This document shows positions 39,364 through 52,532 of a stretch of 64,000 nucleotides of DNA, piece after piece (within the stretch, counting starts at the first letter, position 1; each line of letters begins with the position of its first letter). Position numbers and translations under genes: made by a program. Under the pieces are notes generated by a model that worked only from the letters and a program-made list of their open reading frames with translations, was not told the DNA's origin and did not search any database. Source of the stretch: Octopus vulgaris (taxonomy: Eukaryota); NCBI GenBank assembly GCA_951406725.2, contig OX597822.1, positions 105,710,001 through 105,774,000 of the forward strand, in the 5' to 3' direction.

Positions 39364-40347
39364 CATGTATGTATACTCTGTTTATAACGATCTAAACTTG
39401 AGGAGTTAAGCCGCACTTATGTAGACGTTTCGATCTTGCAAAAGCGTAAACACAAGCAAAAACTGAATTATAGAGTTTAATCAATACCAATAAATCGAAT
39501 TCAATAGTTGTTCGAAGTTTTGGAAGAGATATTATCTCTCGAGATTGTGAAATTGAAGATTCTTGCAGAGGGTAAGTGAAAATCGACTATTAAACAACTA
39601 GTCCAGAACATCATTCTGCTTATCTCGTCAATAAGAGAACCACAGAGGACCAGGAGTAAAACCCTGTTAGATCTAGAATTTAAAATATAGAAGAACGAAC
39701 CTCAACTAGTTAATATATTTGATCCAGCGGTCTGCGGCCCCAGTCCAACTCCACCACGCTGGCAATAGTCTAATGTTAAACAATATTCTGGTAGAAAATT
39801 AAACAAACAAAGCAAAAGCTAAAAACAAAAGTATTTTGTCTGTTAATAAAATAAAAGAATATTTGAAGCTAGATAGAAGCGTTGCCAAGTTTTCTTCTGG
39901 CGCTATTTGCTCTTGTCTGAAAGCAAACTATGATACTAGAAAGTATCAGATTAATTCAGATCAGGTCATGTGAAAAGCTACTTGGTCAAGGATACACACA
40001 CACACACACGCACTCACACGAACTCACACACTCTCTCACACACACACACATACTCATACACACACCTTCACACATACGCACATAGATACGTAGGTACATA
40101 CACACACACGCACACACACACACATATATAGAATACGTTTACACTTTAGCAACAGAACTTTTTCAGCGTAAGATTATATGTATGTGCACGTCTGTGTGTC
40201 TGAGTTTATTTGTGTGTTCATGTGTTTGTAAATGCTTGTGTGTCTCTAAAATATTACACAATACAAATATATATATATATATATGCATATACAGGTACGC
40301 ATATATAGAGACAAAAACGTAATGTATATATATATATATGTAAATGT

Positions 40348-40392
<45 letters not shown>

Positions 40393-40397
40393 AATGT

Positions 40398-40446
<49 letters not shown>

Positions 40447-40490
40447 TGTACGTATATATTACATTCGTATATATTTGTCTAGATATATAC

Positions 40491-40547
<57 letters not shown>

Positions 40548-40610
40548 TATAAGCATATATATGTGTGCACATATAAATATATGCATATATGTGTGTATAG
40601 TGTGTGCAAA

Positions 40611-40658
<48 letters not shown>

Positions 40659-40943
40659 CATATATATCTATACTATGCCGTTTCAGACAGCAGGAGTTAA
40701 AAGTTTTTTGAGGTGTTAAACAAAAGAAGAAAAAAAAACCTGTAAACTATAACATGAAGTGAAATTTAAAAAACCAAGCAAAAAATAACATTAGTTTATT
40801 TTTTAAGTAAGAAAATTCAGATGATACAACAAAGGAAGACTACTGAATGCCCACGTCTATCATTTCCTTCTCCTTTTCTTCCGATACTCACACACACACA
40901 CACACACACACACACGAACATACATACACACACATATATATGT

Positions 40944-41012
<69 letters not shown>

Positions 41013-42218
41013 TATACATATATATATATACGTATATATACATATATATACATATATATATATATATATAATATATATATATACATATATAAGCATATAT
41101 ATATATATATGTATGTATATATACATACATATATTATGTGTTCGTGTTCGGTGTGTATGCGCAAGCACGTGTGAATATGTGTGTGTGTGTGTTTATATCA
41201 TTGTTTTGGCTTCTAAGCTCTGTCCGTATTTAATGTGATGCTAGCCTCTCATAACACCACTAATGCCAGTACTTTTAAATGAGTTTATCTTCCTAAATTT
41301 AACTATATAACATTATATGACTACATTTCTCTGTGTGTTAGTTGATGCGCGAGAAGTTATGAAAAGCAACGCAGTCGACTCTTGTGCAAGTAACAGCAAC
41401 GCAAGTGCTATGTAGCCATTAGGAATATCGATTTTTCATTTAGGCACACGGCCGTGGATTTATAGTTGTAGGAGATAGTACAGTTTTCCTACCTTTTAGG
41501 AAAGCGATATCAATGAGAGTAGAAATTCCTTAAAATAGTGATTGAATTGCTTATTACATAATTTACATAGCAGGTGTCTGAAAATTCCCTAATTTCTATA
41601 ATGATTTAGCTGGAAGATGTTCCTTGCGTCTGTGGAAGTAGAAGCTATATGTTTGTTTGCGTGATTGCGCTTTCCAAAGATTCTATCGGAGACGGTGCAT
41701 AGATCTACGTGTCGCTATTATCTCCGATTCGAGACAAACGATGGGAGCCACAATGAGGTCATTGAATATGCTAGAAATATTAACCAGATCTCGCTCCTCT
41801 CCCTAAAAATATTTTATATTCTTAAGAAATTGAAGGATACATTTGAACATGTAGTATTAGCTAAACTAATGGATAGTTTGTTTATGGATGAGATTACTTT
41901 GATAATAAGGTTTGTTTAATTAGGGCATAACAGCAACAACCACTAATTAACACGTCTGTCCTGAATTAACCCTGTGTTCGGTGTCAAATTTAAACATTCT
42001 CATTTCAGAGTAATACTGCTAGCCACTACAGATATATCAATACAACTTTCATAAATAAGGTATAATTATTCTGAAACCTAGAAAATATTTCATACCTAGA
42101 ATATTTGCTTATTTTGCACACATTTTACACACCTGAAACAACATGGAAACAACAAATAATCATATTTCGGAAGTGATCTACAAAAAAAAAAAGAAATAAT
42201 AAAAATTACAACAAATTA

Positions 42219-42646
42219 GGTGCAGGAGTGGCTGTGTGGTAAGTAGCTTGCTAACCAACCACATGGTTCCGGGTTCAGTCCCACTGCGTGGCATCTTGGG
42301 CAAGTGTCTTCTGCTATAGCCCCGGGCCGACCAATGCCTTTGTGAGTGGATTTGGTAGACGGAAACTGAAAGAAGCCTGTCGTATATATGTATATATATA
42401 TATATGTGTGTGTGTATATGTTTGTGTGTCTGTGTTTGTTCCCCTAGCATTGCTTGACAACCGATGCTGGTGTGTTTACGTCCCCGTCACTTAGCGGTTC
42501 GGCAAAAGAGACCGATAGAATAAGTACTGGGCGTACAAAGAATAAGTCCCGGAGTCGATTTGCTCGACTAAAGGCGGTGCTCCAGCACGGCCACACTCAA
42601 ATGACTGAAACAAGTAAAAGAGTAAAAGAGTAAAGAGTAAAGAGTA
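42219..42646 (+). mobile_element. SINE-A full length
   Basis: Family match with extended (aaagagt)n tail. Confidence 0.95.
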
Positions 42647-42749
42647 ATTAGGAAAACTTTAGTTACTGTTAATATACTTTACATTAGTAATACTCTTCAC
42701 TACAATCGTTTGATTAGGTTTCTCTCTGTGAATCTACTAATAGTAAATT

Positions 42750-43128
42750 CACAGGCGTGACTGTACGGTAAGAAGCTTGCTTCCCAACCACATGGTTCTG
42801 GGTTCAGTCCCACTGTGTGGAAACTTGAGCAAGTGTCTCTTTTGTTATAGTCTCGGGCCGCCCAAAGCCTTGTGAGTGGATTCGGTAGACAAAACTGAAA
42901 GAAGCCTGTTATATAAATTGGGGGGGGGCGTCTTTGTGCCTGTGTTTGTCCCCTGACAACCTGTGTTGGTATGTTTACGTCCTCGTATCTAGCGGTTCGG
43001 CCAAAGAGCTTGATAGAATAAGTACCAGGATTAAGTAAAAAGTACTGGGTTCGATTCATTCGGTTAAAAATTCTTCAACGTGGTGCCCCAGCATGGCTGT
43101 AGTCTAATGACCGAAACAGGTAAAAGAT
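42750..43128 (+). mobile_element. SINE-A, older diverged subfamily
   Basis: Head cttgcttcccaaccacatgg (tRNA-Gly-like CCC loop); tail ggtgccccagcatggc. Confidence 0.85.
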
Positions 43129-44174
43129 AATTAATAATAGATATGTTATCTCTATCAAAATCTGATTCTATTATTCTCAGCTCTTGAGACTATTATCCTT
43201 TCCGTAATCTCTGAATCATTGATGATTAGAACACTAAAACTTTTGAAATTCTACACCATCAATAATTTCTCCTTCACTATTGAAACTTTTAAAGGAACCA
43301 AATGTTTTGGCATTCAGAATTGGTTATACATTGATATAAGGGAGATGATGAAAACTATTCTATCGTCCATGATAAAATAAATAATTTTTATCTTTTATTT
43401 GTTTCAGTCATTGGACTGTGGTAATGCTTTGAAGGGTTTGGTCGAAGAATTTGGTCCTAGTACTGTTTGGGGGTCTCTTTTTCTAAAGCTTGCTGCCTTT
43501 TTTCTATCGGTCACTTACCCTACTGCTGTTATAAGGACGTAAATAAATTTTGAAAAAAAAAACAGTTGTCAAACAGCGGGTGGCGCATAAACAATTACAA
43601 AGATATATACAGGCACACACAGACACTTACACACACGTACACTCACACACTCTGTCTGTCTCTCTCTCTCTCTTTCACACACACACACATGCACACAAGC
43701 ACACAAACACACATGGACTAAACGTGGCTGACATGTCAAACGAGCCACTTGGTCACACAGCCATGATTGCGACTGTTTCCCAAAAAAAAAAGAAAAAGAA
43801 AGAGTTTGCAAACACGATTAACATCTATACAAATATTGTTAAGAATGTCTAACTTTTCTCTTCTCCATCAGAAGAAAGAGATACCTGTGGCTAAGCAACG
43901 ACGACAATAATAACAGTGACATCTCCTTATTCAAAATCTCATTGTTAAAACTGACATAAATTCGTATTCTGATGGTCAAGTTCTAATACTGGAGTATAAT
44001 TAAGGTAGCTCAGAATTTTGAAATATTTGTTTATAGCTTTCAATTTTGAAATCCAATTATTGTTTCTGATACGTATGGACAGAACTTAAAATCTGTATGA
44101 ATGAGACTTTCTTAAATAAATATATAAAGAGACACGAACACACACACAGAGATGAAATGGAAGAATGGAAAGAC

Positions 44175-44236
44175 TGATCGATCGATCGATCGATAGATAG
44201 ATAAATAGATAGATAGAGATAGATAGATAGATAAAC

Positions 44237-44305
<69 letters not shown>

Positions 44306-44396
44306 TATAGAAACACAGATAGAGATAGATAGATACATACATAGATACATAGATAAATAGATAGATAGATAGATAGATATATAGATAGATAGATAA

Positions 44397-44449
<53 letters not shown>

Positions 44450-44504
44450 CAGATAGATAGATAGATGGATGGATGGAGGGAGGGATAGATGGATGGATAG
44501 ATAT

Positions 44505-44598
<94 letters not shown>
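44175..44598. repeat. Compound (GATA)n microsatellite
   Basis: Direct reading. Confidence 0.97.
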
Positions 44599-45154
44599 CG
44601 GTAAAAGGTTACGCTATCGAAATCTGTTATAGTTCCATCTGTTGAATTATCAGAATTGCAATGAGGAACTAGGGAAAATATATTGCCTCCATATTGATAG
44701 CTAAAATTTGAGAAGTAGTGAAAGAAGGAGTAACAGAAAGAGTGTAGAGTAGGAGTAGATGAGAAAATATGAACAGGTGAGAGAGAAGAGGTGGTGTTTC
44801 AATGATATAGCTGATAAACGGATAATATTTTAAATAGCGATATAAAATTTAGAACATTTTCTTATTTGAGAAAATGTCTTACCTGAGAGAAATCCCATAA
44901 GTGTAGTGTGGTCTACGAATTTAACATTTTCACTAGTAAACTCTATTCACTGAGCATGATGGCAAATGGAAAGAGAAATTCTTCTCATCCAATAATGGGA
45001 GGTTTCAAGTTTAAAGTTATTTATTGCGCACCCGAAGACACCATATCTGGATAGTGTTTCGAAGGAAGTTAGCAGATAATCAATTGAAGCGTGGAAAGGT
45101 GTTTATAAGCCATTTAGGAAACAGACAAAACCGTTAGATTCACTTCAGCATATA

Positions 45155-45574
45155 CTCTCTCTTTTACTCTTTTTCACTTGTTTCAGTCATTTGACTGCGG
45201 CCATGCTGGAGCACCGCCTTTAGTCGAGCAAATCGACCCCGAGACTTATTCTTTTGTAAGCCCAGTACTTATTCTATCGGTCTCTTTTTGCCGAACCGCT
45301 AAGTGACGGGGACATAAGCACACCAGCATCGGTTGTCAAGCAATGCTAGGAGGACAAACACAGACACACAAACACACACACATACATATATATATATACA
45401 TATATATATACGACAGGCTTCTTTTAGTTTCCGTCTACCAAATCCACTCACAAAGGCATTGGTCGGCCTGGGGCTATAGCAGAAGCCACTTGCCCAAGGT
45501 GCCACGCAGTGGGACTGAACCCGGAACCATGTGGTTGGTTAGCAAGCTACTTACCACACAGCCACTCCTGTGCC
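45155..45574 (-). mobile_element. SINE-A inserted into the left arm of the fold-back
   Basis: Family match; short atata duplication at the junctions. Confidence 0.95.
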
Positions 45575-45658
45575 TATATAAATTTAATTTGTCAAAATAT
45601 TTTCGTCGCTTTGAGACCGCGACCTGTTCACAGACAAAACTGAGATGCAGCAAGAAGT

Positions 45659-45709
45659 TTTGTCAGTGAACAGGTTGCGGTCTCAAAGCGACGAAAATAT
45701 TTTGACAAA
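45659..45709 (+). ncRNA. Hammerhead ribozyme motif with G3:C8 core variant (inverted second copy at 45588-45638, minus strand)
   Basis: uuuguca-GUGAACA-g-guugc(ggucucaaa)gcgac-GAAA-auau-UU-ugacaaa. 7-bp stem I, 5-bp stem II, palindromic stem III. Confidence 0.7.
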
Positions 45710-46332
45710 TTAAATTTATATGTTGAAGTGAATCTAACGGTTTTTTGTGTTTCATAAATGGCTTATAAACACCTTCCACGCTGCAGTTGTTTTCGTTCCA
45801 GTACACGATCTCAGATCAAGTCACTCGCTATGCAAGTACATCTCCGTAATTAGCAGATACTATTTTATGAATCAGAAATACAGAACACAAAAACGCCGTT
45901 TGGTATTGTTTTTAATCTTTGACAAAACATTAATTAATATTTGATATAGTTTCAGGTTTTGGATATTACATTTTTTTTTAAATATCACCAACTCATATAT
46001 GCGCTACAAAATTGATTAGGAAATGTGTAAAGCTGTCCGAAACGTAATTTGAATGTGTCAACGAGTGTATACTTTTGAAGCCGAATTTCTGTTCACAGTG
46101 ACAAAGTAAATAATCCATTTGTAAGTAAGTAGATATCTCTTAAGATGCAGTTGTAAGTTTGCAACGATTCGATTAGAGAAGAATCACGAAGTCTGGTGCT
46201 TTTCATGCTGGATAATGATTGTGCATATTCACACACACTCATACCTCTCTCTACCTCTCTTCCTCTCCCTCTCCTTGTCTCTCTCCCCCTTTCTTTCCCC
46301 CTCTCTCCTCTTTCTCTCCCTCTCTCCCTCTC

Positions 46333-46366
<34 letters not shown>

Positions 46367-46397
46367 CTATGAGTGCGTGTATATATTATATATATAT

Positions 46398-46682
46398 AAG
46401 TTCAGCAAAATTTCGATTCAGATGAATATGGTACTTAAGTCAAAGGCACCAGAATTTTGTATGGTATTATCCATATAAATCAATGTGGTGATTATAACCA
46501 AAATAAGCAACAAATATATCCGAGGTAGAGTGGTACAATTGTTTCATGCAGGACGAGTTTAAAATGTGCATTGTCCGTTTGCTAGACTTTTTAAAACTGA
46601 TGTAATACTTACAGTGTTTAATAAAATGAAGTAGCATGAAACAATTGTACCACTCTACATCGGATATACTTGTTGCTTATTT

Positions 46683-46686
<4 letters not shown>
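46398..46686 (+). mobile_element. Longest copy of the fold-back repeat family, ~50-bp inverted arms containing hammerhead 3' halves
   Basis: caaaataagcaacaa..atatccga.gtagagtggtacaattgtttcatgc / gcatGAAAcaattgTAccactctac..cggatatacttgttgcttattttg. Confidence 0.85.
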
Positions 46687-46732
<46 letters not shown>

Positions 46733-47660
46733 GCACATATACATAAACGACACACACATGCTAGTCGGAGCATACGCATGGCACGTGTATCAAGAGCTTC
46801 TTACGCAAACATTTATATAAATATATGTATATATAAATGTAAGAGTGTGTGTGTATGTACGTTGGTAAAGATGGTGATCATTTGCCGGAAACCTGCAGGA
46901 CGAAAACAAAACCTGTCAATGTTTGGATAAATTCACTAGGATCATTGGCTACCCAGCAATTGTGAGTGAGAGACCCTAATCTTTTGGTTTAAACGTCTTT
47001 GTAAGAAAACTAAAACACTGATATCGCATTTGCGACTTCATGTGCATTCAATAATGTAGACTATATCTTCTCGCTGGGTAAATCCATACTGTCCTTGGGG
47101 AATGAGTGTGACTCTATGCAAAACCTTTCCTCTCTTCACAAAGCTTCATGCACTAACATCGTTTGATATTTAACATCGCCATTATATGTCTCATACTAAA
47201 GTTGGCCCTAAACGCAAAAAGCAAAACACTAAATGAGAAAAAATTTCACGAGAGAGTGAAGACGTGTATGATTGGCAAGCTCTCTGAACACCTGCTGTCA
47301 GAGGTGACCATCTTTGCCAACATTTTTTCCAAAAGCGTGCAAGTCCATTGAAGGCTTCTGAACCACATCTGTACTGTTCAGGGTTAAGAGAATAGTCAAC
47401 CATTATCATTGAACGGAATGGAGATGCCACCATCAAGTATGTATGTTGTTAGTCTCTGCGTGTTTATGTACGTGTATGTGTAGCGAATACTGAACTAAAA
47501 GTCTTCTGGTATTCCATTTCTGTGTAATTTCTCTTTAAAATATGAAAACAATTCTAAGGTAGTTTTTCACTCTATATTTTGAAATATATCTATTAAAAGT
47601 TCTGGCAAAAGAATGTTTTAATACTCAGAGCCACAATAATAAACCACATCAAATTGTGTG

Positions 47661-47709
<49 letters not shown>

Positions 47710-47808
47710 CATGTATGTATGTATATATAAATATGTATATATATATATATAAATATGTATATATGTATGTATGTATGTGTGTATATACATATATATATAT
47801 ATACATAT

Positions 47809-49128
47809 ACACACACGCATACGTCAAGATAACCAGCCCTCTTCCACACGAACATACGAACTTACTTATACACACTCATGCGCACCTTCGTTTTGGGGTC
47901 ACCACTTTATATATATATATATATACACACATATATCTACATATACTTATACATACAGACACACACACACACATATATATATATATTTATGGGGGGGGGG
48001 AGAATTCCCCAAAAGTAAAGACACTCGGGAAGTGAAAAAGTATTTAACGTTTCGAGCCTATGCTCTTCCACAGAAAGGAACACAGAAAGAAACAAGGAGA
48101 GAAAATAAAGAATGTGTAGAGGCTAGCGATCTATCATGGCGGATGCCGGACAGAAGACTCACACAGGAGAGCTAGGGAGAAGGGGAGGTAATATAGTAGT
48201 GGTGATCCCAAAACGAAGGTGCGCATGTGTGTGTATAAGAAAGTTTGTATGTTCGTGTGGAAGATGACTGGTGATCTTGACGTGTGCGTGTGTGTATGTG
48301 TAGATGTGAAAATGTGGGTCTGGGAAGTGGTCAGTACTGGTGTGTGCGTGGTAGTGTGTTGTGATGTGATGTGTTGTGTGGTATGGTGGTGTAAGGTGTA
48401 GTGGTATGTGGTGTGGTGTGATGGTGTTGGGCGGTCGTGGAGGCGAGAGTGGGGAAAGCAACGGTAAGGTGTGGGTTAGACTGAGGGTGGGGGTAGAGGT
48501 GGGTGTATGTGGGTGTTGGTGTAAGGGATGGGGTGGGATGAGGAAGTATAGAGAAGGTGTGGTGGAATATGTAGGGGTGGGGTAGACTTACGAGCGAGGT
48601 GTGATAATGAAGGGAGGAAGGAGAAGGTGGGTAGGAGTGAAGAGAAGTAGAAGTCGGAGCAAGAGAGGAAAGGTGGATGGGAGGAAGTAGGTGTGAGGGG
48701 GAGAGAGGCGAGGGTAGGAGAGTTGAGACACGTGGCGCAAAGGAGCGAAGAGACAAGCTTAGTCCTGTTCACGGCGCAAACGGGTGTCCGGATGGCTTCT
48801 GTGCAAGGACAATCCGAACACGGACAGGTGTTGCAAAGAATGACCGGTAGAGCGGAAATGACGCGAGAACGGGGTGTCATTGCCGAGTCGGATGTCTTGG
48901 AGGTTTTCTGCGAACCGGCCAGCCAGACGGCGACCCGTTTGCCCGGTGTATAGAGAAGGGAAGAGAGAGAGCAGGAGATACAATAGATGATATTGGTAGA
49001 AGTGCAGGTGAAGGAGTCGGTGATGTTGTAGTGTTGATGATGGGTGCCGATGAGGAGGGTGGTGTTGGATTGGTAAGGGCAAATACGGCAGAGTGGGCGG
49101 GAGCAGGGGAACGAGCCGGGTTGGGGGG
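47809..49128 (-). mobile_element. 5'-truncated Penelope-like element: GIY-YIG remnant, 3' UTR/pLTR with hammerhead (48042-48077), inverted partial copy
   Basis: GIY-YIG coding at 48720-49128; pLTR homologous to 21688-21875; 47809-47906 is an inverted copy of 48198-48295; abuts (TA)n. Confidence 0.88.
48720..49128 (-). pseudogene. PLE GIY-YIG endonuclease domain, frameshifted
   Basis: GSFPCSRPLCRICPY..SFTCTSTNIIYCISCSL / SLYTGQTGRRLAGRFAENLQDIR..PFSRHF..GHS..RLRREQ / LRSFAPR: Cys linker, IIY...YxG motifs, conserved R and E. Confidence 0.9.
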
Positions 49129-49892
49129 TTATATATATATACATATATATATATTGAACATTGTCCAACGTAGTCGATGGTATTCATTAGGGTTTGATAT
49201 TTTTATTAAATTTCTAATTCAGTACGTATAGATAGCTTTCAGAAAGCTTCAGAACACGATGAGTTTAGCTGTTTTCTGAAAATTATAATATAACAGGCCA
49301 CACGTCATGATGAACATTCGTGATGAATTCTTATGAAAAGGTATCTTAAACATACAAAAAAAGCGTTGTAATGCTTGACAAGTTTGCTACAGCAGTGGAC
49401 GCAGTGTATTCTGGTATTTACTGATACCTCTTTAATTCTTGATTTAGAATACTGCTTACGTCAACTTCGGCTTATATCCGTCTCTGGTCGATAAAACAAA
49501 ACTATGACCGAGCTCAGTAATATCATCTATATCTCTCTCTTCCCAAGACTGAGGACTGTGTCTATGTTAAAAATCAATATTTCAGATAGAAACAAAAGAA
49601 CATAGATAAATTTCATCGTTTTGAAGTTGCATGATTCCGTATGCATATGCACAGTCAGCAAACTGCTTTCTATCTTATGAAAATGCACAACTGTTCATGA
49701 ACGAATGGGGCCTAGCTTAATAAGAATCGGTTCATCTTCTAATAAAAAAAAAAAAAAATATTAAATTCTTTTTTATCCATTCGCTTTGGTGTTCTTGCTC
49801 TTTGATCTTCGATTTATTCCAATAATAGGTTTTTGAAATAGAATATACTGGTCTTATATAACGTCAGAATCTATTGTCTGTAAAAATACAGG

Positions 49893-49943
<51 letters not shown>

Positions 49944-50149
49944 CATGTATTCGGAGAAACGCCTACACTGTATATAGATCTACAGAATGTTAATTAAAAC
50001 CGACCGTAATTTGTTTAAGCACTTTATGTTACTAGTTTTCAATGATTCTATATTTAATGTACTAAAGCGTATTTCAGTCGAAACCTGGTATATTGTTATT
50101 TCCGATGAATAAAGTACGAAGTATACATTCACATACATGCATACATACA

Positions 50150-50244
<95 letters not shown>

Positions 50245-50390
50245 CCTTTCATACATACATACATATATATATATATATATGTATATATGTATATATATAT
50301 ATACTCACACACATATATATATGTATATATGTATATATATATATACACACACACACATATATATATGTATATATATATATACATACATAT

Positions 50391-50426
<36 letters not shown>

Positions 50427-50566
50427 CCTTTCATACATACATACATATATATATATATGTATATATGTATATATATATATACTCACACACATATATATAT
50501 GTATATATGTATATATATATATACACACACACACATATATATATGTATATATATATACATACATAT

Positions 50567-50598
<32 letters not shown>

Positions 50599-50700
50599 CC
50601 TTTCATACATACATATATATATATATATATGTATATATGTATATATATACTCACACACATATATATATATGTATATAGATACACACACACACATATATAT
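50245..50700. repeat. Higher-order tandem repeat of compound microsatellite units (182 and 172 bp)
   Basis: Anchor cctttcatac at 50245, 50427, 50599, with the same order of actcacacac/(TA)/(CA) blocks. Confidence 0.85.
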
Positions 50701-50703
50701 ATG

Positions 50704-50736
<33 letters not shown>

Positions 50737-51224
50737 ATTTATATATGTATATATATACACACATATTTATATATGTATATATATACACACATATGTATAT
50801 ATATATACACACATATTTATATATGTATATATATATACACATATGTATATATATACATACATATATATATATATAATATATATATCATATAGAATCCTAT
50901 TCTTTAACGTTGGCTAATATTCATAACAATACACGTATCTTCACAAATGGGGAAATGGGCCACACACATTTCTATTTTCATAGCATTGAAAATATGATAG
51001 GTAGAACACAGCATTGAGATTAGAGAGGCGCAAACAATGACAGATACCTAGAACCTATCCTAACACCAAGTTAATCACGTGAAAGTGAACGGAGTTGAAT
51101 ATGGAGATGCCAAGGCAGAAATGTAAATATATATTGATAACCTATTTTAATACCATAGGCTGCAGTTTTTGGTGGAATGAGGTAATAATAATTGGTTTCA
51201 ATTATTTCTTTTAGTTTTTTTTTT

Positions 51225-51623
51225 ATTCTCTTACCAGTTTCAGTTATTTTGACTGCGCCCATGCTGGAGCACCCCCCTTTAGTCAAATAAATCGATCTCA
51301 AGACATTCATTGTAAGCCTAGAACTTATTCTATCGCTAAGTTACGGGGACGTAAATACACCAACATTGGTTGTCAAGCGATGGGGGATGGACAAACACAC
51401 ACATACACACACATACACACACACACACACACATATATATATGTATGTATTTATGTATACGACGGGCATCTTTCAGTTTCCATCTACCAAATACACTCAG
51501 TAGGCTTTGGTCGAGCCGAGACTGAAGTAGAAGACACTTGCCCAAGGTACCACGCAGTGGGACTAAATTCCGGGACCGTGTGGTTGGGAAGCAAGCTTGT
51601 TGCCACAGAACCACTCCTGCACC
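51225..51623 (-). mobile_element. SINE-A, diverged copy
   Basis: Family match. Confidence 0.88.
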
Positions 51624-51826
51624 TCATAATTTTGATATATTCTCAAGAAAATTAAAAATAAGTGTGCTGGTACAATTGTGTTTTTATTGAGGTTGCTGTG
51701 GAATTGTATGCATTTAGTTTCGATCCCACTGCAGGTGAAGCTGGGTGAATGTATTATATTGCTGACCAAAGCCTTATAAGTGAAATTTGATGGAAAGTGT
51801 TGCGAGAATCTATCGCTCGCACACAC

Positions 51827-51906
<80 letters not shown>

Positions 51907-51945
51907 AGACAATAGAGATTATGGTGACTATTGTTCAACTTCAAA

Positions 51946-52532
51946 GGGCGGTGAGCTGGCAGAAAAGTTAGCGCGCTGGGCGAAATGCTTAGCGGTATTT
52001 CGTCTGTCTTTACGTTCTGAGTTCAAATTCCACCGAGGTCGACTTTGCCTTTCAACCTTTCGAGGTCAATAAATAAAGTACCAGTTTCGCACTGGAGTCG
52101 ATGTAACCGACTTAATACCTATGTCTGTCCTTGTTTGTCCCCCCTTGTGGGTAATAAAGAAATAGGTATTTCGTCTGTCGTTACGTTCTGAGTTCAAATT
52201 CCGCCGAGGTCGACTTTGCCTTTCATCCTTTCGAGGTCAATAAGTAAAGTACCAGTTTCGCACTGGAGTCGATATAATCGACTTAATCTCTTTGTCTGTC
52301 CTTGTTTGTCCCCTCTGTATTTAACCCCTTGTGGGTAATAAAGAAATAGGTATTTCGTCTGTCGTTACGTTCTGAGTTCAAATTCCGCCGAGTTCGACTT
52401 TGCCTTTCATCCTTTCGAGGTCAATAAATAAAGTACCAGTTTCGCACTGGAGTCGATATAATCGACTTAATCTCTTTGTCTGTCCTTGTTTGTCCCCTCT
52501 ATGTTTAGCCCCTTGTGGGTAGTAAAGAAATA
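51946..52532 (+). mobile_element. SINE-B trimer within one ~17-bp TSD
   Basis: tattgttcaacttcaaa (51929-51945) / tatggttcaacttccaa (52533-52549); all units share cgaggtcaat and gtttcgcactggag variants. Confidence 0.95.

What the first reader, a model, noticed from the sequence alone, without database searches (positions are those of the whole stretch)
45588..45709. Hammerhead ribozyme pair with a swapped G3:C8 catalytic-core base pair
Seen: both arms of the 45081-45789 fold-back contain a complete minimal type-I hammerhead layout (stem I uuuguca/ugacaaa, stem II gucgc/gcgac, GAAA, palindromic auau, UU cleavage dinucleotide). The core strand reads GUGAACA instead of CUGANGA; only positions 3 and 8 differ. 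Established: C3 and G8 form a Watson-Crick tertiary pair in the active hammerhead, and compensatory swaps can restore activity. Inference: a natural G3:C8 hammerhead of a PLE family that a standard CUGANGA search would miss. Caveat: the two arms derive from one template, so they are not independent evidence of conservation.
Basis: partly seen in the sequence, partly recalled or inferred. Interest (0 to 1): 0.85.

Follow-up and report, generated by a model that had tools for sequence, protein, structure and literature searches.

The report
Swapped-core hammerhead in octopus retroelements
A jumping-gene family present in roughly two thousand copies in this octopus genome carries a self-cutting-RNA (hammerhead) motif in which two normally fixed, paired core letters are swapped (C-G to G-C) while related families keep the usual letters, so it is likely a natural working variant that standard searches miss, although cutting is untested.

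Summary
The stretch is a short fold-back insertion of the terminal repeat (pLTR) of a Penelope-like retroelement, with a one-sided 60-nt tail and a 10-bp target-site duplication. GUGAACA is the family norm: 1,931 genome matches with positions 3 and 8 left open, 95 of the first 100 G3:C8, none C3:G8. The repeat lies behind RT/GIY-YIG frames, including a 1,025-codon open frame in a young subfamily. An older family keeps G3:C8 while position 7, loop II and helix III change. Related families with matching stems carry U3:G8 or C3:G8. So the pair covaries in nature. Corrections: an extra G follows A9; each arm has one stem defect; the arms lie on opposite strands and would zip into a hairpin, so this copy is probably inert. 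Cleavage is untested, no cleavage footprint was found, and the lineage tolerates other core changes (A9C, G3:G8). The papers I could read report natural U3:A8 and only engineered G3:C8; four key papers were unavailable. This scan noted G3:C8 earlier in phage and protist DNA (unchecked). Verdict: new variant of a known ribozyme.

The parts
45069..45078 (+). left target-site duplication (10 bp)
   Evidence: same 10 letters at 45850-45859
45081..45154 (-). outer part of the inverted pLTR arm, ending where the tail begins
   Evidence: matches 45717-45792 at 90%; continuous with 45576-45639 in uninterrupted copies L026, L029
45155..45575 (-). later insertion of an abundant dispersed repeat (SINE-like; label recalled) that splits the left arm
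   Evidence: at least 8 other copies in the window at 71-93%; absent at this place in other two-armed copies
45588..45638 (-). hammerhead motif of the inverted arm; G3 = 45631, C8 = 45626, U-U mismatch at 45632/45594, predicted cut between 45595 and 45594
45639..45647 (.). fold-back junction; the plus arm starts at the position of the predicted 3' splice site of longer copies
45659..45709 (+). minimal type-I hammerhead motif with G3:C8 (45666, 45671), extra G at 45673, stem II 45674-45678/45688-45692, palindromic helix III 45696-45701, predicted cut after 45702
45640..45789 (+). sense pLTR arm, 5'-truncated, 97% identical to the majority of 17 subfamily-A1 copies over 45650-45850
45790..45849 (+). 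60-nt tail present on one arm only (PLE tail signature)
   Evidence: tail described in PMC8557442 and PMC11167929
45850..45859 (+). right target-site duplication

Best explanation
This is a short fold-back insertion of a Penelope-like element's terminal repeat whose hammerhead motif has G at position 3 and C at position 8 across the family, a swap likely kept by selection because it would preserve the 3-8 base pair needed for self-cleavage of the source elements' RNA. Shown: the family-wide G3:C8 core, the link to RT/GIY-YIG frames, and U3:G8 or C3:G8 in related families. Inferred: in a transcript of a tandem or full-length element two sense copies (or two RNAs) pair through the palindrome AAUAUU to form helix III, G3 pairs with C8, and the RNA is cut after U17, probably slowly and with help from the element's protein. 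This particular copy is predicted to be inert, because its antisense arm would zip the whole motif into a hairpin.
For: Census with positions 3, 8 and 9b open: 1,931 exact matches, 0 controls; first 100 listed: G3 97, C8 98, G3:C8 95, C3:G8 0 (counted by eye). Copies reached without the core as query: G3:C8 in 26 of 30, 23 of 27 and 26 of 28. ORF link: GIY-YIG frame then repeat in L122, repeat then RT/EN fragments in L129, 1,025-codon open frame with YVDD and GIY-YIG (Pfam E 1.8e-05) about 1 kb before the motif in L191; 21 of 30 endonuclease-selected loci passed the descriptor downstream, all GTGAACA. Subfamily A2 (median 99% DNA identity among 15 copies) differs from A1 inside the motif only in loop II. 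Older family D (74% identical to the window arm) has G3:C8 in 29 of 44 and G8 in 0 of 44, with position 7 mostly C. Family C, same TGTCA/TGACA and GTYGC/GCGAC stems: U3:G8 20, C3:G8 5, U3:A8 4, other 7, C8 0 of 36. Family B (ORF 54% identical to A2): C3:G8 in 30 of 30. Stem changes between family majorities are compensatory at 10.4/11.4 (A vs B) and 10.3/11.3 (A vs E). An engineered C3G/G8C double mutant of a PLE hammerhead partly restores cleavage, with protein present (PMC11167929, passages). The G3 families have U17, which avoids a G3-C17 mispair (inference from PMC3884650, passage).
Against: No cleavage assay. RNA reads of one run show no pile-up of ends (table 6), though that library is poorly suited. 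Copies beginning at the cut site are few and not clearly enriched: 9 (20 minus 11 that carry the fold-back microhomology) against 4 and 3 at the neighbouring positions. The lineage tolerates other core changes: A9C in 29 of 30 family-B copies, U3:G8 in family C, and six G3:G8 copies clustered on contig C16 with different downstream flanks. G at 9b departs from the published H consensus. All G3:C8 families (A1, A2, D) form one clade, so the swap is one event. Homology between the A/D clade and the B/C/E clade outside the ribozyme was not detected by profile search (0 of 64 A/D copies with the C or B profile); it rests on the proteins and on the stems. The stem I covariation in D is weak (G-C in 7 of 25).
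Confidence: 0.68

Rival explanations
1. The fold is conserved, but for a non-catalytic role (binding of the element's protein, splicing or RNA packaging); the 3-8 pair is kept for folding and cleavage is negligible in vivo.
For: Hammerhead mutants did not affect insertion in vitro for an Anolis PLE, and no RNA ends were seen at its cut site (PMC11167929). PLE minimal hammerheads cleave weakly even as dimers (PMC4209133). No cleavage footprint here. A predicted splice acceptor sits 14 nt before stem I.
Against: All catalytic-core positions other than 3 and 8 are kept in A1, A2 and D, including G12 and an uncleavability-free U17; the 3-8 pair belongs to the active conformation (PMC3884650).
Confidence: 0.22
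2. The ribozyme is decaying in this lineage and G3:C8 is a chance double substitution carried along by successful source elements.
For: Several other core departures in relatives (A9C, U3:G8, G3:G8, possibly C3:A8). Copy number reflects a few source elements, not selection on each copy. The motif was noticed because it is a neat swap, which inflates its apparent improbability.
Against: Between A and D, about 26% of the repeat, position 7, loop II and helix III changed while G3, C8 and the other core letters did not. If two of 11 conserved core letters changed at random, hitting 3 and 8 with a Watson-Crick result is about 1 in 165 (my arithmetic: 55 pairs, 3 of 9 outcomes).
Confidence: 0.08
3. 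The locus is a microRNA-like or other functional host hairpin and the hammerhead look is incidental.
For: Very stable hairpin; Rfam microRNA models match it (best MIR841, 69.9 bits).
Against: All matches are far below the gathering scores (200 bits for MIR841). Fold-backs are routine in this family (an inverted arm within 1.5 kb in 18 of 29 and 10 of 29 loci) and in PLEs generally (PMC8557442). The motif is the same in single, non-inverted copies.
Confidence: 0.02

Closest known systems
Minimal type-I hammerheads (min-HHR) in pLTRs of metazoan Penelope-like elements (Cervera and de la Pena 2014, PMC4209133)
   Same: Position in the pLTR, type-I layout, extra nucleotide between 9 and 10.1, G10.1-C11.1, short palindromic helix III suited to dimers, occurrence as single or inverted copies, intron end just before helix I as in Drosophila virilis Penelope (predicted here).
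   Different: Core is GUGANCAG rather than CUGANGAH. The supplement alignment rows I saw show C3:G8, U3:A8 and U3:G8, none G3:C8. Position 9b is G.
Natural U3:A8 hammerhead core variants (Perreault et al. 2011, PMC3088659; Schistosoma PLEs, PMC4209133)
   Same: Natural covariation of the 3-8 tertiary pair.
   Different: U3:A8 is two transitions and keeps pyrimidine-purine order; G3:C8 is two transversions and flips the pair.
Engineered C3G/G8C double mutants (Anolis Poseidon PLE hammerhead, PMC11167929; G3-C8 variant mentioned in PMC3884650)
   Same: Identical swap; partial rescue of cleavage reported.
   Different: Those are laboratory mutants; this one is the wild type of a transposing family.
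Nematis/Neptune-type EN+ Penelope-like elements (PMC8557442)
   Same: RT followed by a CX3CxxC linker and C-terminal GIY-YIG; one-sided tail; inverted 5'-truncated copies; frequent (TA)n flanks. The short linker resembles the Nematis rows of that paper's Fig. S2 (by eye).
   Different: No tree with named references was built, so the clade is not fixed. The tail is 60 nt rather than 30-40 nt.

Membership tests
PLE minimal type-I hammerhead | Three-way layout with stem I closing the ends and stem II starting G10.1-C11.1 | tested here: met
PLE minimal type-I hammerhead | Core U4 G5 A6 A9, G12 A13 A14, A15.1-U16.1, H17 | tested here: met
   sequence
PLE minimal type-I hammerhead | Literal C3 and G8 (CUGANGA) | tested here: not met
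   G3 and C8 in 95 of 100 listed copies; this is the variant feature
PLE minimal type-I hammerhead | Watson-Crick complementarity of positions 3 and 8, covarying among relatives | tested here: met
   G:C in A1, A2, D; C:G in B; U:G or C:G in C
PLE minimal type-I hammerhead | Unpaired nucleotide between 9 and 10.1 (consensus H) | tested here: inconclusive
   present, but G in 99 of 100; G also in B, C, D
PLE minimal type-I hammerhead | Short palindromic helix III | tested here: met
   AAUAUU in A, AAUU in D; the duplex alone is marginal, -0.2 kcal/mol
PLE minimal type-I hammerhead | Self-cleavage after position 17 | not testable with these tools
   indirect footprints inconclusive
Rfam hammerhead families | Match to a curated covariance model | tested here: not met
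   no hammerhead among the 150 of 217 rows shown for 40000-52000, nor among all 28 rows for 8 short loci that include conventional-core relatives; the models do not see these minimal forms at all
Penelope-like element (EN+) | RT and C-terminal GIY-YIG endonuclease in one frame | tested here: met
   L191 1,025-codon frame, Pfam GIY-YIG above cut-off; RT read from the YVDD motif and 54% identity to family B, whose fragment hits RVT_1 below cut-off; not present in the window itself
Penelope-like element (EN+) | pLTR in direct or inverted arrangement with one-sided tail | tested here: met
Penelope-like element (EN+) | Retained spliceosomal intron in the pLTR | tested here: inconclusive
   branch-point-like CTAAC and acceptor in 158 exact copies; no donor or spliced joint found
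Nematis clade | Phylogenetic placement with named Nematis RT/EN | not tested
   linker resemblance only

The most novel reading that the evidence does not exclude
Octopuses carry a lineage of Penelope-like elements in which the hammerhead's 3-8 pair has been sampled in nature as C:G, U:G, U:A and G:C on nearly the same stems, and the G3:C8 form is a catalytically active wild type that has been transposing for a long time, up to young intact elements. It would be the first animal G3:C8 hammerhead that I could find described, a natural allelic series for testing what PLE hammerheads do, and a sign that CUGANGA-based searches miss whole high-copy families.
Probability: 0.45. Interest if true: 0.68.

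Novelty: new variant of a known kind. Interest (0 to 1): 0.55.

Why it matters
The function of hammerheads in Penelope-like elements is still open. A compensated transversion swap that is fixed in a young, intact family is evidence that the active-state 3-8 pair is under selection in these elements. The related families give ready-made natural controls (C:G, U:G, G:C, G:G) on matching stems. It also shows that descriptors fixed to CUGANGA undercount ribozymes: about two thousand copies here. It does not change the known chemistry, since the swap was already shown to work partly in engineered RNAs.

Tried and rejected
Rfam scans found no hammerhead model match, also not for conventional-core relatives. 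A 7.2-kb tandem on contig C17 (L059-L061) was checked as a possible full element; the unit holds LINE-like fragments and no PLE frame of 120 codons or more was seen, so it is a local duplication. An ORF fragment 1.8 kb before the motif in L032 resembles the Hydra clade and is separated by other repeats; not used as linkage. An upstream probe turned out to be the end of a Tc1-like transposon. Cleavage footprint in genomic copies: 20 copies start at the cut site, 11 of them with the letters expected from a fold-back junction through stem I; neighbours gave 4 (one before) and 3 (one after); two and three after gave 100 and 31 but are confounded by a subfamily with a 2-nt insertion: inconclusive. 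Among 48 arms from 29 loci, 5' ends were spread from -83 to +10, with 2 at the cut. No RNA holder was listed for the stretch. One raw RNA run showed no end pile-up. A metagenome scan gave one hit, inside what reads as a bacterial protein-coding gene, without hammerhead stems: chance. The first alignment had three rows with wrong coordinates and was redone; automatic alignment misplaces stem II across families, so pair counts were made per family. The 3:8 counts for C and D come from loci chosen with position 3 constrained and were not used; two searches were used instead. No phylogenetic tree was built. Papers not held: Lunse et al. 2017 (PMC5785218), Hammann et al. 2012 (PMC3334697), Seehafer et al. 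2011 (PMC3004062), Przybilski and Hammann 2007 (PMC1986816), Martick and Scott 2006 (PMC4447102).

Full report
Observation. On the plus strand, 45659-45709 reads stem I UUUGUCA, core GUGAACA, one extra G, stem II GUUGC with loop GGUCUCAAA and GCGAC, then GAA, the palindrome AAUAUU, U17 (45702) and UGACAAA. The minus strand holds the same layout at 45638-45588. A descriptor allowing five 3:8 pairs found 1 hit in the window and 0 in each of 10 shuffles. Single arms do not fold better than shuffles (z -1.6, -1.1); both arms together form a hairpin of -102.6 kcal/mol.

Host and family. The window lies in a 2.8-Gb genome. A protein labelled Octopus vulgaris by its source is 98% identical to a retroelement frame from this genome, so the host is an octopus. 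A 161-base probe gave 2,110 candidates. A pattern with positions 3, 8 and 9b open matched 1,931 times, controls 0; of the first 100 listed in contig order, 97 have G3, 98 have C8, 95 both, none C3:G8 (counted by eye). Copies reached through the downstream flank, the upstream splice signal or the endonuclease gave G3:C8 in 26 of 30, 23 of 27 and 26 of 28.

Anatomy of the insertion. The unit runs 45081-45849 between two copies of a 10-bp target duplication (45069-45078, 45850-45859). The left arm is inverted and split by a later repeat at 45155-45575. The right arm carries 60 extra bases at its end. An inverted 5'-truncated copy and a one-sided tail are the described signature of Penelope-like elements (PMC8557442, passages). 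An inverted arm was present in 18 of 29 and 10 of 29 other loci. Longer copies have a branch-point-like CTAAC and an acceptor-like end 14 bases before stem I (158 exact copies), as in Drosophila virilis Penelope, where the intron ends at helix I (PMC4209133); I found no donor, so the intron is predicted only.

Link to the coding region. L122 has a GIY-YIG frame, a microsatellite-rich stretch and then the motif on one strand; L129 has the repeat followed by broken RT and endonuclease frames. A search with that endonuclease found a second subfamily, A2, about 88% identical in protein, with frames up to 1,025 codons and median 99% DNA identity among 15 copies. 21 of the 30 loci returned passed the descriptor downstream of the frame, all with GTGAACA. 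Inside the motif A2 differs from A1 only in loop II. The RT-linker-GIY-YIG order and the short cysteine linker resemble the Nematis rows in the supplement of PMC8557442 (by eye); no tree was built. The window itself holds no such frame.

Covariation. Family D is older, 74% identical to the window arm, and homologous to A outside the motif (profile hits 17 of 17 A1 and 22 of 22 A2 copies, 0 shuffles). With 3, 7 and 8 open it gave G3:C8 29, G3:U8 8, A3:C8 4, other 3 of 44, never G8, and position 7 is mostly C. Its loop II and helix III differ. Family C has the same inner stems but U3:G8 20, C3:G8 5, U3:A8 4, other 7 of 36, never C8. Family B, found by protein, has C3:G8 in 30 of 30; its frame is 54% identical to A2 and its repeat is homologous to C outside the motif (29 of 30). 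Stem II changes between family majorities are compensatory. Limits: the profile search did not bridge the A/D and B/C/E groups outside the motif (0 of 64); no frame was found beside C or D copies in the short loci held; and the swap is a single event shared by A1, A2 and D.

Other species and RNA. Runs under six organism labels hold the stretch. Laying four runs of four labels on a family copy at 82% likeness, neither position 3 nor 8 appears among the 40 best-supported differences shown, out of 124; majority changes elsewhere do appear, so G3:C8 is probably the majority there too, but 84 rows were hidden. One raw RNA run laid 1,753 reads in both directions, so family copies are transcribed in that species; this says nothing about this locus, and no pile-up of ends was listed.

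Mechanism. Shown: layout, fixation, ORF link, covariation. From the literature: C3 and G8 pair in the active fold (PMC3884650, passages); PLE minimal hammerheads work weakly and as dimers (PMC4209133, parts 1-2 of 4; PMC6765202, section 11 part 2); single C3G or G8C changes kill a PLE hammerhead, the double change partly rescues it, and protein is needed (PMC11167929, passages). Inferred: source-element transcripts pair through AAUAUU, form G3:C8 and are cut after U17. This copy would be locked in its hairpin. Against an essential role: A9C in 29 of 30 family-B copies; six G3:G8 copies near each other on contig C16 with different downstream flanks (these loci were picked because they cluster); and no clear excess of copies starting at the cut site, 9 against 4 and 3.

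Novelty. Ten searches of the held library found no report of a natural G3:C8 hammerhead. PMC3088659 (passages and section 8) and PMC4209133 report natural U3:A8. The alignment rows seen in the supplement of PMC4209133 (file 2, search and part 2 of 3; file 1 not readable) and the motif table in the supplement of PMC8557442 show no G3:C8 core. PMC10085705 and PMC6155905 (passages) and bioRxiv 2026.07.22.740005 (passage) added nothing on it. Lunse 2017, Hammann 2012, Seehafer 2011, Przybilski 2007 and Martick 2006 were not held; the first three and their supplements could already list such a variant. Earlier notes of this scan describe G3:C8 in phages and in protist PLE tails (unchecked, not counted as support); none matches this sequence.

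Verdict. A real, family-wide, probably selected core variant of a known ribozyme in a known kind of element, unusually well controlled by its relatives, with activity untested. New variant of a known kind; interest 0.55.

Noticed in passing
L128:3900-3955, L131-L160, L193, L194: Family B, a young PLE family with frames up to 1,271 codons, has core CUGAUGCG: A9 is replaced by C in 29 of 30 copies. A second fixed core variant.
   Followed up: partly
L211, L265, L266, L268: Family E: four copies with A at position 8 and C, C, U or A at position 3; possibly a U3:A8 or mismatched lineage. Too few copies to call.
   Followed up: partly
L122, L123, L124, L125 (contig C16, 4.8-9.3 Mb): Six copies with G3:G8 and a shared loop variant, with different downstream flanks, clustered on one contig; many intron-bearing copies also cluster there.
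   Followed up: partly
L047, L057, L065: In three fold-back insertions one arm has C8 and the other G8, so the two arms may come from different templates or position 8 mutates repeatedly.
   Followed up: no
window 45639-45647; L003-L030: Many short copies begin within a few bases of the predicted splice acceptor, 11 of them with GAG before ATG instead of CAG; perhaps a spliced template or a stop point for reverse transcription. No donor found.
   Followed up: partly
(85 of 100 matches): A subfamily has two extra bases at the end of the 3' strand of stem I, like family D.
   Followed up: no
window 46497-46686: A second inverted-repeat element about 700 bases downstream (Rfam MIR807 model, 56 bits, below cut-off); probably another fold-back or miniature transposon.
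   Followed up: no
window 46088-46105 (minus strand): A short stretch resembling stem I plus the GUGAACAG core with two extra bases, but without stem II or GAAA partner; likely chance or a remnant.
   Followed up: no
L128:6215-6260: A further hammerhead-like motif with a conventional CUGACGA core and a 4-bp stem II, belonging to an unrelated repeat.
   Followed up: no
L032:4500-5150: Broken frame resembling Hydra-clade PLEs, unrelated to the motif 1.8 kb downstream.
   Followed up: partly
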